IMG/VR virus record: IMGVR_UViG_3300005611_000113
Coordinates: 1-33,442 of that record
Strand: one strand, 5' to 3'
Origin: a virus
Lineage: Duplodnaviria > Caudoviricetes
Length of the DNA: 33,442 bases
Position numbers and translations under genes: made by a program
Notes under the pieces: generated by a model
Told to the model about the DNA's origin: nothing
Database searches by the model: none
Seen by the model: the letters and a program-made list of their open reading frames with translations, nothing else
Part shown: one piece after another, positions 17,119-23,968 of the stretch
Numbering within the stretch: the stretch's first letter is position 1
How the letters are laid out: the number at the start of each line of letters is the position of its first letter

Positions 17119-19506
17119 CTAGTTGAAGAAGTAGAGAGATTGCCGCACGGCGGCGGGGTCGAGCGTCCCGTAGGTGGGCAGCTCAGGGAGTGACACTTCG
17201 GGCGGAAGGTAGGCCTCCACCTCACGCTTGAACTCAGCCAGCAGATCGCGGCTGAACATGGAGGCTGCTGCCTCGAGGATGCTGCTGTGCAAGAGGCCTG
17301 CATCGGCGGCCCTGGTGGCGAAGCTGTCGTGCACGACGGCGAAGTCCGTCACGCCTTGACGCTTGGCCTCGAGGATCGTGGTGAACATCAGAGCCGCGTC
17401 CATCGAGTGGACCCAGTTGGGCGCGAGGCCGTTCAGCATCTTGCGCCGGTCGATCCTGTCGGTCTCCTCACGCAGCTTGTGCTGACGGATGGTGTCACCG
17501 ATGCGCGTCTTGATGCTCCGCATCTTGAAGCGCCGGTAGTCCTGCCGAACCGGGTAGCCCACAGGTGTAGTCCATCGCACAGGCACCTCGTTGTGTACGC
17601 AGATGTCCGCCACTGCGCTGAACCAGTCCATGGCCTGTTGCGCTCCGCTGATCACCAGGTCGAGCGCGTTCCAGATCTGGCGGGCCAGGTACAAGCAGGC
17701 CTTCTGGTCGTTGTCCACGGGCAGGAACTTCTCATCGCCCCCCGCCTTGTCGATTCCCCACTCGCGCACATACTGCATGGCGCTGTAGAGCTGGGCGTTG
17801 TAGACCCGCGTCATCACGATGCGCTTGGTCGCTGTGCGGTCGATGCCGAACTCCAGCCACATCCGGCCCAGCTCGGTGCCGTCTGCCTCCATGAGCTCGA
17901 TCACCTTGTCGGCCACCTGCTGATACAAGTCCTGCGGCTTGTCGGCGGGGGTGCAATTGGTGGCCGCGGCACCGATGGGATCACGCAGCGCAAGGGAGAG
18001 CACCTGCACTCCCGACTGCGTGGCGTCCAGTGCCACGGCCAGCGAGGACTCGAAGCCCTCCGGGTTCGCAACCCAATCGGCGTACTCCTTGCAGAAGGCG
18101 AGGAACTGCCACGGCTCATCGGCCTCAGCCCAGAAGGAGCTGTGAAGGTAGGGATCCTTGGCCACCTCGAGGATGAGCGGGTGGCTTCCGTTCACCCACT
18201 CCACTCTGTCCTCGAACGAGGCCTTGGTCATGCCATAGCAATTAGCACCATGGATCTTGAGCCAACGGACCCCCTCTGCATCCAGCTTCGCGCCCTTCCC
18301 AAAGCGCAGCAGTGCCTTGACGTAGTCCGGCCCCTGCGGATGCAGATGGAATGATGTCTGGTAGGCGCGGCTGCGCCAGTCGAGCTGCGCCACGAACCAC
18401 ATAGAGCGGCCCGAGTATTCCTGCGCCATGTGCAAGACCTTCTCCATCGTGAGCCTAGAGGCCACGGTGTGAGCGTTGTGGTCGTACACCGCTGCGGCAG
18501 CTCTTCGCCACTTGCGTCGTGCGACTTCGTTGGTCTCGATGTCCAACGGCTTCGGCGGGATCTCGAGGTTATCACGCGCCGGCAGCCCAGCCACCTCGCT
18601 CCCCGTGCCCCAGTAGGACTGGAGCACCTCGAGCAGCCAGGTGTTCACGGTGAACTCCGAGTTCTGGATGGTGTTCACCGCTTCGTACAGCTCGGGCATC
18701 TCCGCGAGCTCGAGCTCCTCGAGGTAGCGACGGTCCCAACACTTCACCAAGGGGCGACGGTAGAGGTCCTTGGTGTGGAAGCCACCTTGGGTGGGGGATG
18801 TCCATGGCTTCGGCGGAGCCAGGCAGGGGAGGTACACCGGGGTCAGCAGTTGCTGCCGCTCATGCGCCTGCTCCATCCACCTCATCGTCTGCTCCGTGGC
18901 GCACACCTCCGCCCGAGTCTTGCCGAACATGGTCATGCGGTTCTGCACTTCGATCAGCCCGGTGCTCTGCGCCAGGAGCTCGATGGCAACGGTGCCCACT
19001 TGCAGCTTGTCGGTCTGGGTCCACTTCACGAACGGGTGCTTCATGCGGTTCATCAAGGCGACGATGCTGCGCCGCTTCACCGAGTAGCCCATGTACTCAT
19101 TGACCCGCTTCTTCACAGCGGTCCACAACTTCGGGTCCGACTCGGCCAGGGCCATGTAGCGGCACTCGTCCTCGAGCAGCGTGGCCACCTGGATGGCACA
19201 GCGCGTAGCGGTCTTGCGCCTGCTCACACCATCGAGCACGCACCGGGCGACCAGTGCAGCGATCAGGTGTGCTGGCAGGAGCTCGAAGTAGATGACTGCA
19301 CGGTGCGCCTTGCCTGGCCTCGAGTTGGCCAGGTGAATCCACGACTCAATAGCCTCAGCCAAGTGCGTCACTGCATTGGCGAGAAGCCACTGGCCAGCTG
19401 GCGTCGTGGTCTCAAGGCCGTGCTGCTCAGCCTGGTCCTTGCGTGCCTGGTAGCGGGCCTTGCCCAACCGTGCCATCTCGCGCTCAAGGGCTGCTTGCTC
19501 GCTCAA
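17119..19506 (-). CDS. Single-subunit T7-like DNA-directed RNA polymerase
   Basis: 795 aa; PPKPW, LDWRSRAY, motif A LDATQSGVQ, motif B RTATKRIVMTRVY, APNWVHSMDA, motif C VHDSF, C-terminal YFFN. Confidence 0.97.
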   Translation of the reverse strand: MSEQAALEREMARLGKARYQARKDQAEQHGLETTTPAGQWLLANAVTHLAEAIESWIHLANSRPGKAHRAVIYFELLPAHLIAALVARCVLDGVSRRKTATRCAIQVATLLEDECRYMALAESDPKLWTAVKKRVNEYMGYSVKRRSIVALMNRMKHPFVKWTQTDKLQVGTVAIELLAQSTGLIEVQNRMTMFGKTRAEVCATEQTMRWMEQAHERQQLLTPVYLPCLAPPKPWTSPTQGGFHTKDLYRRPLVKCWDRRYLEELELAEMPELYEAVNTIQNSEFTVNTWLLEVLQSYWGTGSEVAGLPARDNLEIPPKPLDIETNEVARRKWRRAAAAVYDHNAHTVASRLTMEKVLHMAQEYSGRSMWFVAQLDWRSRAYQTSFHLHPQGPDYVKALLRFGKGAKLDAEGVRWLKIHGANCYGMTKASFEDRVEWVNGSHPLILEVAKDPYLHSSFWAEADEPWQFLAFCKEYADWVANPEGFESSLAVALDATQSGVQVLSLALRDPIGAAATNCTPADKPQDLYQQVADKVIELMEADGTELGRMWLEFGIDRTATKRIVMTRVYNAQLYSAMQYVREWGIDKAGGDEKFLPVDNDQKACLYLARQIWNALDLVISGAQQAMDWFSAVADICVHNEVPVRWTTPVGYPVRQDYRRFKMRSIKTRIGDTIRQHKLREETDRIDRRKMLNGLAPNWVHSMDAALMFTTILEAKRQGVTDFAVVHDSFATRAADAGLLHSSILEAAASMFSRDLLAEFKREVEAYLPPEVSLPELPTYGTLDPAAVRQSLYFFN

Positions 19507-20206: not shown

Positions 20207-20412
20207 TACTGCACCTTTTGGGCGGCTGCCCGCTGCATCCAGAAGCGGACCAAGGCCTGCTCCAGAATCCTTGCCAGCTCGGGTCGCTCCTCAGCGATAG
20301 CCCGCAGCCGGTGCTCCTCAGAGGGCTTGTCGCCCCAGTCTTGAGGATTGAGTTCGAACTCCCAGGCCCAGTTGAACCGGGCGCACTGCTTGTGGAATTC
20401 GGTGGGCCTCAT
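20206..20412 (-). CDS. Hypothetical early protein
   Basis: 68 aa; GAGGAGG RBS and ATGA coupling with the upstream ORF. Confidence 0.65.
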   Translation of the reverse strand: MRPTEFHKQCARFNWAWEFELNPQDWGDKPSEEHRLRAIAEERPELARILEQALVRFWMQRAAAQKVQ

Positions 20413-20732
20413 GCCGTCACCTCTTCCTCATGGGCCTCGACGTAGTCGGCCTCCTCGAGCTCACGCGCCGCAGCACAAGACCTGTGCTTGCAGCGGTACT
20501 GCATCAGGTCGCGGCGGAAGTCGTGGCCCCCGTCGTGGATGTTCTCGACACAACGGAGCGTGGCCTCCCATTCACAAGGCTCACCGGGCAGCTGGATGCT
20601 GGTCGCGAGCAGCTTCAGGAAGTGCTCGAGGCAGTCGAGGCACAACGCCACCTCACCCGCAACGGTGCGCGGGGTCTCTCCGGCGGGGATGAGGTACTCA
20701 GCCGCCTGGTGGCAGGTGATGCAGGCCTTGAT
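20409..20732 (-). CDS. Cys-rich (Zn-finger-like) early protein; start uncertain
   Basis: CITC...CLDC...C...C...CKHRSC with phage-like codon usage from about 20732. Nearest in-frame ATG is 20957, inside the structured region. Confidence 0.55.
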   Translation of the reverse strand: MKACITCHQAAEYLIPAGETPRTVAGEVALCLDCLEHFLKLLATSIQLPGEPCEWEATLRCVENIHDGGHDFRRDLMQYRCKHRSCAAARELEEADYVEAHEEEVTA

Positions 20733-20739
20733 TGAACGT

Positions 20740-21120
20740 GAGTAGGATTGCGATTTCCTACGGACATCAAAGTCCGCTGACCCCCGTTGGGACCAGTTAA
20801 TTGGTTGCGATGTTTGAGAACCGTAAAGGGCTCGGGAGCCAGCGTCGCCGCCATCAAGGTCCGATAATGTACGTCGGGTTGCTTCCCAACGCGGGCCTCC
20901 GGCCCTCTTCCCTTGATTGCGTGCGACACCCCCCGATGACGGAGTGATGTGCTGCATGCATCTACTAACGGTAGATCTTGCCAGATTCCAAACTCCTAGT
21001 TTGGAAATTCCTGGCCGTGGTGCCACAGGTGGGAGAAAGGTGGCGGGGTGGCTCATGTCCCGCCAGCTGCCGATAACGACCAAATCGAGGTGAGCCACGC
21101 CTCCTAACGGCAGCCTGTTC
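20740..21120 (-). ncRNA. Candidate structured RNA / attP-containing region downstream of the integrase
   Basis: About ten helices in ~380 nt, an 8-bp loop-loop complement and a ~24-bp interrupted helix. Several pairs are G-U on the minus strand but A-C on the plus strand. Confidence 0.5.
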
Positions 21121-21123
21121 AGT

Positions 21124-21963
21124 CTAGCGCCCAACCTCCAAGAGGCGCACAGCGTCCTCGAGGTTGCGCGGGGCAAGGTGTGCGTAGATCAGGGTGGTCT
21201 CGAGCTTGGCGTGGCCGAGGAGCTCCTTCACGGTGAGGATGGGCACCCCGGCCTGCACCAGGCGCGAGGCGCACCCATGGCGCAAGCAGTGGGGGGTGAA
21301 CTGCTTGTCGTCCGCCAGGCCCATGGCCTTCTTGGCCTTGTTCCAGGCGTACTCAAGGTGAGCCTGGTTGATCTCGGTGAAGGGCCCATCGCCACCCTGC
21401 TCCCTGCGGGCCTCGAGGATCCGCTGGACACGCTGGGTGCAAGGGATCGACCTCGAGGTGCCACCCTTGGTCTCCCACAGGCGGATCCAGCTGCCATCAA
21501 CATCCTCCCACTGGAGGCCCAGCAGCTCGCTCCTGCGGCAGCCCGTGTCCGCGAGGCAAGCCACCAGGTCACTGAGGTCCTCGCGGCCCTGCTCGCGCAG
21601 GAGGCGGATCATCTCGGCCTCCTCCTCCTGAGTCTGCCACCGCAGCCGCCCCTGCTTCTCCTTGAACTTCTGGATGTGGGGGACCTTGGCGATCCATTCG
21701 CGCTGGTGAGCCCAGGTGAGCATGCGGCTGAGCACCGAGAGCCTGCGGTTCACCGTCTTCTCCGAGGTGCCCGAGGCCACCCACTGGTCAGCCTGGTCCT
21801 CGATCATCGAGGCCGTGATCCTGTGGACCTGGCGGTCAGCACCGAAGCCCTCGAGCACCTTGTTCAGGTTGGAGCGGTGCGGGGCAGGGGTGCGGGTGCC
21901 AGCCCAGAACTTGGGCCAGGCCTTCTCAGCCAGCTGGCCGAGGGTGAGCGGGGTGCGCTTCAT
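21124..21963 (-). CDS. int: Tyrosine recombinase / phage integrase
   Basis: 279 aa with the full catalytic set: TGCRRSEL (R), ETKGG (K), HCLRH (HxxR), LGH, TLIYAH (Y). AAGGAG RBS. Confidence 0.95.
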   Translation of the reverse strand: MKRTPLTLGQLAEKAWPKFWAGTRTPAPHRSNLNKVLEGFGADRQVHRITASMIEDQADQWVASGTSEKTVNRRLSVLSRMLTWAHQREWIAKVPHIQKFKEKQGRLRWQTQEEEAEMIRLLREQGREDLSDLVACLADTGCRRSELLGLQWEDVDGSWIRLWETKGGTSRSIPCTQRVQRILEARREQGGDGPFTEINQAHLEYAWNKAKKAMGLADDKQFTPHCLRHGCASRLVQAGVPILTVKELLGHAKLETTLIYAHLAPRNLEDAVRLLEVGR

Positions 21964-22210: not shown

Positions 22211-22311
22211 GGTGGGCAGAAGGAACTGAGGTGGGCAGAAGGGACTGAGGTGGGCAGAAGGAACTGAGGTGGGCAGAAGGAACTGAGGGGGCAGAAGGAA
22301 CTGAGGGGGCA
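22211..22311. repeat. Tandem 19-bp direct repeats (GGTGGGCAGAAGGAACTGA) x5 plus partial units
   Basis: Units start at 22211, 22230 (one substitution), 22249, 22268 and 22287 (18 bp); partial units at 22201 and 22305; no spacers. Confidence 0.95.
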
Positions 22312-22661
22312 CCGGTGTCCCACATTTGGGAGGGCAAAACGCACAGGGTATCTATCAGCGAAGCCGCCTCGCGCCCCCGCCGGCCGGGTCCGCCGCGCTT
22401 GAGGCCCCCCCTTACCCCCCCTGGGGCCCCCCTGGTGCACCCTGTTAGACTGTCCATCAAACCGATACCCCCTCCAAATCAGCCTTCTCGGGGTCATGAG
22501 GGCCGATTCTCGGGGCGCTCGAGGCGCTCGAGGCCACCCTACCCCCCTCGAGCGCACGTTTGCGGGGGCGTGCGCGGGTGCGCGGATGGCCTAGGGGGCC
22601 CGGGGGGGTGGGCGCGACTATGACGAACGTACAGTCGCTCAGATTTTTGCACCGACTTGCC

Positions 22662-22725
22662 GCACCGTTGGGAGCACCGTTGGGAGCACCGTTGCCCCCC
22701 AGTGCACCCCAGTGCACCCCAGTGC
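22662..22725. repeat. Short tandem repeats: GCACCGTTGGGA x~3 then CCCCAGTGCA x~3
   Basis: Read directly at 22662-22694 and 22697-22725. Confidence 0.9.
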
Positions 22726-22738
22726 CCCCGTTGCCCCC

Positions 22739-23286: not shown

Positions 23287-23297
23287 GGGGCTCCTTA

Positions 23298-23673
23298 GTG
23301 CACAATTGTGCACATAGAGGGGTTGAGTGGGCCGAGGGGAGGAGAACTACTACCACCTCCCCCTCTCGCCCCCTATAGGCACAATTGTGTCTTAGGGTAG
23401 ACCTATGAGGATTCTTCTTCTCTCTTTAGGTCTTCTTCTAATCTCTTCTATCCCTATAGGCACAATAGGGGGGGCTTTCTTCATGAGGGAAGAGCTTTCG
23501 ATGGAGGTCGTTCTTGGAGGTCGTCACCAGTGCCCACCGATGCCCCTCGGAACCCAAAAGCACAATTGTGCACAATTGGGGGATCTGGAGCGTCGTCAGC
23601 GGTAGGCCGGGGCCACCAGTGACCAAGGTGCACAATTGGGGGCCTTGGTGCGTCGTCAGCGGTGGCCTGGGGG
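23298..23673. repeat. GCACAAT(T) motif array with palindromes and a ~45-bp direct repeat
   Basis: 16-bp palindrome GTGCACAATTGTGCAC at 23298-23313; motif copies at 23379, 23460, 23560, 23570 and 23630; imperfect repeat 23568-23614 versus 23628-23673. Confidence 0.85.
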
Positions 23674-23746
23674 CTGCCATTGCCCAGAAGGCCCCTAGGA
23701 GCCTCTGTGAGAGCGTTTCACCCTCGCTGAGAGTCAGAGGTCATCT

Positions 23747-23968
23747 TTAGTAGCTGCCTCGCTCCTGCGGCTCCTCAGAGGCCTTCCTGGCAATGTCGCT
23801 CATTCGTAGTGCCTGGTCGTGGTCTACCTCGATGGTGGCCCACTTGTAGGCACAGTTGAGGCACAGGCGCCACCTACGGACTGTCTTGAAGTGGGTGTCC
23901 CAGGTGGCACTGATGACATGGGTCAGCTCCGAGACGCAGTGGGGGCAAGGGACGCTCAGCCGAGCCAT
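23747..23968 (-). CDS. Zn-ribbon protein resembling the NrdR N-terminal / Ogr-Delta-type domain
   Basis: CPHC...T.V.......VRRWRLCLNCAYKWATIE; no ATP-cone domain follows. Confidence 0.7.
   Translation of the reverse strand: MARLSVPCPHCVSELTHVISATWDTHFKTVRRWRLCLNCAYKWATIEVDHDQALRMSDIARKASEEPQERGSY

What the first reader, a model, noticed from the sequence alone, without database searches (positions are those of the whole stretch)
20740..21120. Dense candidate structured RNA between integrase and RNAP operon: possible RNA-based lysogeny switch
Seen on the minus strand: (1) GCTGCCG/CGGCAGC (21114-21108 with 21072-21066) enclosing GAGG/CCTC; (2) TGGCGGG/CCCGCCA (21065-21041); (3) GCCAG...TTCCAAACT-AGG-AGTTTGGAA...CTGGC; (4) ATCTAC/GTAGAT; (5) a ~24-bp interrupted helix, 20936-20911 with 20859-20832, capped by a junction carrying GGGCC/GGCCC and CGTTGGG/CCCGACG; (6) GAGCC/GGTTC; (7) ACCA/TGGT; (8) CGGAC/GTCCG; (9) GTAGGA/TCCTAC. 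Several pairs are G-U on the minus strand but A-C on the plus strand, which favours a minus-strand RNA over DNA palindromes. It matches no tRNA, tmRNA, riboswitch or intron I can recognise. Established: phages P4 and P1 use structured RNAs (CI, C4) for immunity. Inference: since no repressor is visible, this RNA may gate read-through from int into the RNAP operon.
Basis: partly seen in the sequence, partly recalled or inferred. Interest (0 to 1): 0.8.

Follow-up and report, generated by a model that had tools for sequence, protein, structure and literature searches.

The report
Kissing-loop RNA leader plus half-dif site
In an uncultured marine T7-like phage, the stretch between integrase and RNA polymerase holds a short conserved folded RNA whose two loops are predicted to pair and which likely controls transcription into the polymerase genes, followed by a gene carrying half of a host chromosome-resolution (dif) site that is likely the phage's integration site.

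Summary
The listed helices exist and fold better than shuffles (z -4.4), but the 380 nt are not one RNA. Three of the 8 came from models blind to that pairing. There is no Rfam match. A -10-like hexamer lies 6-9 nt upstream in 5 of 5 close relatives, and in one distant relative the element sits just before the polymerase gene, so it likely leads the polymerase-bound transcript. The 3' 218 nt are the start of a 182-aa gene; its folds are not conserved. That gene carries an invariant 12-mer matching the XerC arm and centre of published dif sites, with a degenerate XerD arm: a likely attP. Integration there would split the gene and detach the polymerase from this promoter. No transcript, prophage or host was found. 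The scan noted half-dif sites before on other DNA, mostly in integrase-less phages. Verdict: a real new RNA motif and a probable dif-targeted attP; the lysogeny-switch role is untested.

The parts
21124..21963 (-). Tyrosine integrase, 279 aa, core-binding and catalytic domains only; no N-terminal arm-binding extension
   Evidence: PHROGs and Pfam hits; catalytic-box residues R143, K166, H225, R228, H251, Y260 invariant in 20 of 20 aligned sequences; cultured T7-like integrases are 336-357 aa
21121..21126 (-). Candidate -10 hexamer of a host-polymerase promoter, overlapping the int stop codon, 6 nt before helix P1
   Evidence: TAnnnT 6, 7, 6 and 9 nt before P1 in window, L074, L078, L079, and CAnnnT at 8 nt in L077; background 1-2.6% of positions; TTG-type -35 at 17-18 nt in L077, L078, L079 but not in window or L074. 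Not found by the strict scan
21066..21114 (-). RNA domain 1: helix P1 (21114-21108 with 21072-21066) enclosing hairpin P2 (21103-21100 with 21090-21087) with a 9-nt loop, and a 14-nt 3' bulge
   Evidence: Paired in 8 sequences; P2 pair A-U/G-C changes on both sides; one P1 column shows C-G, U-A and G-C
21041..21065 (-). RNA hairpin P3; its loop (21055-21049) is complementary to the P2 loop (21097-21091): predicted kissing-loop pseudoknot
   Evidence: 5-7 consecutive pairs in 8 of 8 sequences; only 4 of 40320 pairings of loops score as well as the cognate one, 1 of 120 for five lineages; 5 of 7 columns change on both sides
21031..21040 (-). Pyrimidine-rich tail after P3 (a long T run only in L002 and L087)
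   Evidence: 10 of 10 pyrimidines in window, 7-9 of 10 in L074, L077, L078, but only 3-5 T; T runs
20960..21015 (-).
   Evidence: displayed variants at 20960 and 20986 break pairs
20409..20957 (-). ORF182: variable N-terminal part and a conserved Cys/His-rich C-terminal domain of no known family
   Evidence: In-frame ATG and open frame in 5 of 5 relatives; 41% identity to L007; independently called with the same start (P0121); no Pfam or PHROGs hit
20857..20884 (+). Half-dif site inside ORF182: XerC-type arm 20857-20867, 6-bp centre 20868-20873, degenerate XerD-side arm 20874-20884; likely attP
   Evidence: 12-mer 20860-20871 invariant in 5 of 5 close relatives, unique in window; 20860-20874 identical over 15 nt to predicted dif sites of Bifidobacterium and Jonesia; contains TTA, used 0 of 801 times for Leu in 15 window genes
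17119..19506 (-). T7-type RNA polymerase, downstream on the same strand after ORF182 and several small ORFs
   Evidence: phrog_414, E 1.9e-232

Best explanation
The region is a composite of a conserved ~75-nt RNA element with complementary loops (predicted kissing-loop fold), which likely forms the 5' leader of a host-polymerase transcript running to the phage RNA polymerase gene and likely acts as an attenuator, and the start of a gene holding a half-dif site that is likely attP. Shown by comparison: helices P1-P3 and the loop complementarity are conserved with compensatory changes; ORF182 keeps its start and frame; the 12-mer is invariant and matches dif. Inferred steps: (1) host polymerase starts about 6 nt after the hexamer, at P1; (2) P3 with its pyrimidine tail is a leaky pause or terminator, and locking its loop to the P2 loop sets how much transcription passes on to ORF182 and the phage polymerase; (3) the arm-less integrase, alone or with host XerC, recombines the half-dif site with the host dif; (4) integration would cut ORF182 at about codons 28-30 and leave promoter and leader at the int end of the prophage, so the polymerase operon would lose this promoter without needing a repressor.
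For: Covariation: 98% of cells paired, 1 of 500 shuffles reach the covariation score on 5 sequences; 0 of 500 on 7 sequences; slid controls 36-48% paired. Out-of-sample support: models R1 and R2 contain no pseudoknot, yet found L002 (26.9 bits), L087 (16.7 bits) and L082 (20.9 bits), whose different loops are again complementary; held-out L079 scored 44.5 bits. G-U outnumbers A-C 4 to 1 among 96 P1/P3 cells chosen on Watson-Crick pairs only. In L082 the element lies about 25 nt before the polymerase start and below a sigma-70-like promoter, 1.7 kb from int. In L002 and L087 P3 is followed by a T run. LUZ100 has a terminator after int with leaky read-through proposed to reach the polymerase (PMC10134795, passages). 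Pelagiphage attP sites lie between int and polymerase (10.1101/410191, passages). The pattern XerC arm + centre + five XerD bases has 119 viral loci whose unforced flanks rebuild a dif consensus; 22 rows of predicted dif share the 11-mer (PMC3025954 supplement 2).
Against: No RNA data, so start site, termination and fold in vivo are unmeasured. Six of 8 tails lack a T run long enough for a textbook terminator. The window and L074 lack a -35 box. The isolated window element folds no better than shuffles without the pseudoknot (z -0.78), and its MFE prefers an extended loop2-loop3 helix. Only 8 related sequences; L002, L087, L082 are weak hits (E 0.001-0.14, rough) and shuffle controls ignore relatedness. 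No prophage or att junction was seen, and no host is identified. The sister clade (L002, L080, L082) shows no dif-like site in the stretches held. About 15 of 21 displayed variants in the ORF182 N-terminal part change the amino acid, so that part is weakly constrained as protein. The dif weight matrix was trained on a pattern taken from the window, so its scores are circular.
Confidence: 0.45

Rival explanations
1. The RNA is a put-like processive antiterminator: it would fold at the 5' end of the early transcript, bind host RNA polymerase and let it read through to the phage polymerase gene.
For: HK022 putL is ~70 nt, has two adjacent stem-loops and lies just downstream of an early promoter (PMC9378689, passages); this element has similar size, position and abutting domains, plus conserved unpaired bases after P2.
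Against: The passages read describe a triplex and no loop-loop pairing ('pseudoknot' occurs 0 times); a T run directly after P3 in L002 and L087 suggests termination there; no sequence likeness was tested.
Confidence: 0.15
2. Promoter, element and tail define a free ~80-nt small RNA that would stay expressed from the prophage and block the leader of an incoming phage in trans (RNA immunity in the manner of P4 CI or P1 C4, recalled).
For: Promoter-like hexamer before P1 and terminator-like P3; integration at the half-dif site would leave this unit intact; loop sequences differ between lineages and pair best with their own partner, as a specificity code would.
Against: Cognate pairing is equally expected for an intramolecular fold; no second target site was found in the window (model search); no Rfam match, the C4 family being in Rfam by my recall; no expression data.
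Confidence: 0.15
3. The RNA is only a 5' stability or processing element (nuclease shield or cleavage signal) with no regulatory decision.
For: The nested fold is more stable than the extended alternative in 7 of 8 sequences, so no conserved two-state switch is visible; the fold begins at the predicted 5' end.
Against: A simple hairpin would suffice; conserved bulge bases and the T run in two relatives are unexplained.
Confidence: 0.2
4. The half-dif site is not the substrate of the phage integrase: host XerCD would use it, either for TLC-type integration with a phage activator (possibly ORF182) or for resolving dimers of circular phage DNA.
For: Good XerC arm, 6-bp centre and degenerate XerD arm are the layout of TLC attP and GGI sites (PMC6744903, passages); all three centres seen in the clade also occur in full dif-type sites.
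Against: The phage keeps an intact integrase and no other att candidate (no tRNA); no DUF3653 hit among the 19 proteins given to Pfam; a site inside a gene is odd for dimer resolution.
Confidence: 0.3
5. The 12-mer is a protein-binding operator or a conserved peptide (T-L-S-D/E) and its likeness to dif is chance.
For: It is read in the same frame in 5 of 5; a short inverted repeat flanks it and partly covaries; no junction was observed.
Against: Fourfold-degenerate ACA and the otherwise unused TTA are invariant; 15-nt identity to predicted dif sites; single copy in 33 kb.
Confidence: 0.12

Closest known systems
LUZ100 int-terminator T4-RNA polymerase region (PMC10134795, passages read)
   Same: Temperate T7-like layout; host-transcribed read-through proposed to start polymerase expression
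   Different: LUZ100 has a MarR regulator, a tRNA-Leu and a 357-aa integrase; the RNA model finds nothing there; here a promoter-like site precedes the element
Pelagiphage HTVC019P-type attP (10.1101/410191, passages read)
   Same: attP between int and polymerase, so integration separates them
   Different: Those cores are in non-coding DNA and target tRNA genes; here the core is dif-like and inside a gene
TLC-phi attP and XafT; GGI dif-like sites (PMC6744903, PMC4246890, passages read)
   Same: XerC arm and centre kept, XerD arm degenerate
   Different: Those elements rely on host XerCD; this tailed phage encodes its own arm-less tyrosine recombinase and no XafT-family hit was found
Mycobacteriophage BPs integration-dependent immunity (PMC4557955, passages read); Brujita-type simple integrases (10.1101/542381, passages read)
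   Same: attP inside a coding sequence; arm-less integrase
   Different: BPs loses a C-terminal degradation tag and gains an active repressor; here the cut would fall near the N terminus of a non-HTH gene and remove its start
HK022 put RNA (PMC9378689, passages read)
   Same: About 70 nt, two abutting stem domains, just downstream of an early host promoter
   Different: No loop-loop pairing described; lambdoid context; antitermination untested here
P4 CI RNA and P1/P7 C4 RNA (recalled, no paper read)
   Same: Short structured RNA within the leader of the operon it may control
   Different: No Rfam match and no separate complementary target found; trans action untested

Membership tests
Any Rfam family (riboswitch, ribozyme, C4, tRNA, tmRNA) | Covariance-model match | tested here: not met
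   No match at the element in window at E <= 1 or in 5 relatives at E <= 5; ARAGORN 0 genes
Intrinsic terminator | GC-rich hairpin followed at once by a U run | tested here: inconclusive
   Hairpin in 8 of 8; T run in 2 of 8 (L002, L087); window tail is pyrimidine-rich with 4 T in 10 and fails the scan
Two-state attenuator | Conserved alternative fold of similar energy | tested here: inconclusive
   The one alternative tested (extended loop2-loop3 helix) is favoured in 1 of 8 and within about 5 kcal/mol in 4 more; 10-20 kcal/mol worse in 3
put-type antiterminator | Two adjacent stem-loops just downstream of an early promoter | tested here: met
   promoter is predicted only
put-type antiterminator | Binds the beta-prime zinc domain and suppresses distant terminators | not testable with these tools
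   Needs transcription assays
CI/C4-type immunity RNA | Discrete small RNA pairing in trans with target sites | not testable with these tools
   No RNA run listed; no second copy in window
dif site | 11-bp XerC arm and 6-bp centre | tested here: met
dif site | Conserved XerD arm | tested here: not met
   XerD-side score negative in 5 of 5: not a full dif, a half site
TLC-type IMEX | No integrase of its own | tested here: not met
   Intact integrase
TLC-type IMEX | XafT/DUF3653 activator | tested here: not met
   No such Pfam hit among 19 proteins scanned, not every window ORF
attP | Hybrid attL/attR junctions with host DNA | tested here: inconclusive
   No loose end at the site in contigs of 8 runs; no close prophage in the genome scan
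BPs-type integration-dependent immunity | attP inside a repressor gene, truncation activates it | tested here: not met
   Site is inside a gene, but no HTH family hit and the cut is near the N terminus

The most novel reading that the evidence does not exclude
A repressor-free lysogeny system in T7-like phages: an arm-less integrase inserts the genome at the host dif site, which splits ORF182 and detaches the RNA polymerase operon from its promoter, while that promoter keeps making a short kissing-loop RNA whose lineage-specific loops shut down the leader of a superinfecting relative in trans.
Probability: 0.12. Interest if true: 0.88.

Novelty: new variant of a known kind. Interest (0 to 1): 0.6.

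Why it matters
How temperate T7-like phages silence and restart their RNA polymerase is open; the proposed MarR model (PMC10134795) has no visible counterpart in this contig. This locus offers two testable parts: a new covarying RNA motif at the head of the polymerase operon, and a dif-like site inside a gene beside the phage's own integrase. If the site is attP, a tailed phage targets dif while keeping its own recombinase, which my searches did not show in print among open-access papers. The site also predicts the host: a bacterium whose dif carries this XerC arm, common among the Actinobacteria in the table read.

Tried and rejected
Read-through or frameshift fusion of int to ORF182: the frame from int is open in window and L074 but closed in L077, L078, L079; rejected. 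One 380-nt RNA: rejected. tRNA/tmRNA-derived attP: none. Conserved bistable switch through an extended helix: favoured in 1 of 8 only. Phage-polymerase promoter between P3 and the ATG: no recurring motif in the window. TAGTCGC as operator: 1 copy in window, 1.9 expected. Expression: no RNA holder listed; this is no evidence either way. Att junctions: none in 8 of 22 listed runs laid, all contigs. Host search by dif pattern: 0 of 251, 0 of 61, 0 of 51, 2 of 51; Actinomycetota, Myxococcota and Planctomycetota could not be chosen as search groups. More RNA copies: pattern scans gave 75 and 3 loci, with only known family members scoring clearly; L402, L361, L342 matched the P2 part alone and were dropped; L079:7805-7897 was treated as a false hit and left out of R2. 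No match of the element in cultured phages. The first att pattern scan gave 48 loci, 2 from this clade. Automatic loop picking was wrong for L074 and L087 and was replaced by one fixed rule. bioRxiv supplements (pelagiphage att sequences) were not seen.

Full report
Context. The window is a 33-kb contig of a T7-like phage (63% G+C): RNA polymerase, DNA polymerase, primase/helicase, capsid, portal and terminase all match PHROGs on the minus strand. A 279-aa tyrosine integrase (21963-21124) lies upstream of the polymerase (19506-17119). Cultured relatives are distant (polymerase up to 38%, integrase up to 41% identity). Close relatives come from marine and estuarine metagenomes.

Observation. 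The 381 nt fold at z -4.40 on the minus strand and -2.49 on the plus strand. Rfam and ARAGORN find nothing here.

Comparison set. Scans with the integrase gave four distinct close relatives with the downstream DNA: L074 (same as L007, L075; L076 nearly identical), L077, L078 (same as L155) and L079, with integrases 71-81% identical. A sister clade (52-58%) gave L002, L080, L082 and L087; the tree separates it with full support but leaves the five close sequences unresolved.

The 3' part is a gene. An ATG at 20957 opens a 182-aa frame to 20409. All five close sequences have an in-frame ATG and an open frame into a conserved Cys/His domain, although the spacer between the motif below and that domain varies from 48 to 100 codons. 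A database gene call uses the same start. The strong folding of these 218 nt is specific to the window (z -5.66 against -0.77, -0.18, -1.77, +0.03). Among 21 displayed strain variants, 12 of the 15 at paired positions break the pair and none compensates; no indels were seen. Against a protein role, about 15 of the 21 change the amino acid. Elements 5-9 are therefore not a conserved RNA.

The 5' part is a conserved RNA fold. P1 (7 bp) encloses hairpin P2 (4 bp, 9-nt loop) and a 12-14 nt bulge; hairpin P3 follows within 0-4 nt. The loops of P2 and P3 are complementary. On the unedited five-sequence alignment, P2 plus the loop helix are 98% paired, 3 of 10 pairs change on both sides, and 1 of 500 shuffles reaches the covariation score; slid partners give 40-48%. 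Covariance models without the pseudoknot then found L002, L087 and L082; their loops differ in sequence yet pair over 5-6 bases. With seven sequences 6 of 11 pairs change on both sides. With eight, 4 of 40320 loop assignments score as well as the true one. These are weak model hits and related sequences, so the numbers are not probabilities, but three out-of-sample confirmations are hard to get by chance. A strict descriptor hit only clade members in 1.68 Mb, and missed L079, L002, L087 and L082. No relative matches Rfam at the element, nor cultured phages.

Where the RNA starts. A TAnnnT hexamer ends 6-9 nt before P1 in four of five close sequences and CAnnnT in the fifth, against 1-2.6% background; three have a TTG-type -35 box. 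In the window the hexamer overlaps the int stop. In L082 the element lies below a sigma-70-like promoter and about 25 nt before the polymerase start, 1.7 kb from int. In L002 and L087 it is followed by a T run; in L002 a second promoter-like site and the polymerase gene follow. The element thus tracks the head of the polymerase operon, not the int 3' end. I infer a leader that pauses or terminates leakily at P3. The nested fold beats the extended alternative in 7 of 8 sequences, so a simple two-state switch is not supported, and a stabiliser, a put-like antiterminator or a free small RNA remain possible.

The half-dif site. TACATTATC(C/G)GA is invariant in all five close sequences, 50-53 nt from the ATG in four and 86 in the window. 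It forces a TTA codon that 15 window genes never use (0 of 801) and is the only TTA in each ORF. Its reverse complement is the XerC arm and centre of dif: 22 rows of the Kono table share 11 bases, 21 of them Actinobacteria, and Bifidobacterium and Jonesia rows match 20860-20874 exactly (PMC3025954 supplement 2, searched rows only). Adding five XerD bases retrieves 119 viral loci whose free positions rebuild a dif consensus. The XerD-side arm is degenerate in all five, as in TLC attP (PMC6744903, passages). The position between int and polymerase is where pelagiphage attP sites lie. No junction or prophage was found, so attP is inferred. The integrase is catalytically intact and about 60-80 residues shorter than those of cultured relatives, which fits an arm-less recombinase.

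Model. On infection host polymerase would start at P1; the leader would meter passage into ORF182 and the phage polymerase. Integration at dif would cut ORF182 near codons 28-30 and strand promoter and leader at the far end of the prophage. My odds: conserved RNA fold with loop pairing about 0.85; 5' leader about 0.7; half-dif used for integration about 0.65; the whole attenuator-plus-disconnection model 0.45.

Literature seen. Passages: 10.1101/542381, PMC4246890, 10.1101/410191, PMC10134795, PMC6744903, PMC4557955, PMC9378689. Supplement rows: PMC3025954. Listings only; none of the listed titles or abstract openings describes this motif or a T7-like phage at dif, but subscription papers are not covered. 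P4 CI and P1 C4 are recalled.

Verdict.

Noticed in passing
L079:1281-1341: Type-P5 twister ribozyme above the Rfam gathering score (38.4 bits), 2.3 kb upstream of the integrase in this relative; none detected in the window.
   Followed up: no
window 22211-22323: Tandem 19-nt repeats (about 5 copies) in a long non-coding stretch upstream of int, with 10-nt repeats at 22684-22734; L007 has different tandem repeats at the same place. Possibly the genome-end region.
   Followed up: no
window 23290-23672: 31-nt inverted repeat (23301-23331 with 23359-23389) and several copies of a short palindromic word in AT-richer DNA.
   Followed up: no
window 23747-23968: 73-aa protein with an NrdR-like zinc ribbon (PF22811, E 1e-7); the only regulator-like hit among the small ORFs scanned.
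   Followed up: no
L002, L082, L074, L078 around the element: The word TAGTCGC recurs in or beside promoter-like sites and at the int stop codon; only one copy in the window, so no operator claim is made.
   Followed up: partly
L074:1663-1690: A degenerate second copy of the half-dif site 33 bp from the first.
   Followed up: no
L213-L330 (many): A large group of mostly 38-48% G+C viral contigs, some over 30 kb, share one full dif-type 28-mer with conserved flanks.
   Followed up: no
window 20960-20975 and relatives: ORF182 has no Shine-Dalgarno-like motif in 4 of 5 sequences, whereas int and the capsid gene do; a CCG(A/T) word recurs 14-17 nt before the ATG.
   Followed up: partly
window 18561-18720 and 23681-23840: Two 160-nt windows fold more strongly than the finding region (z -5.0, -4.1).
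   Followed up: no
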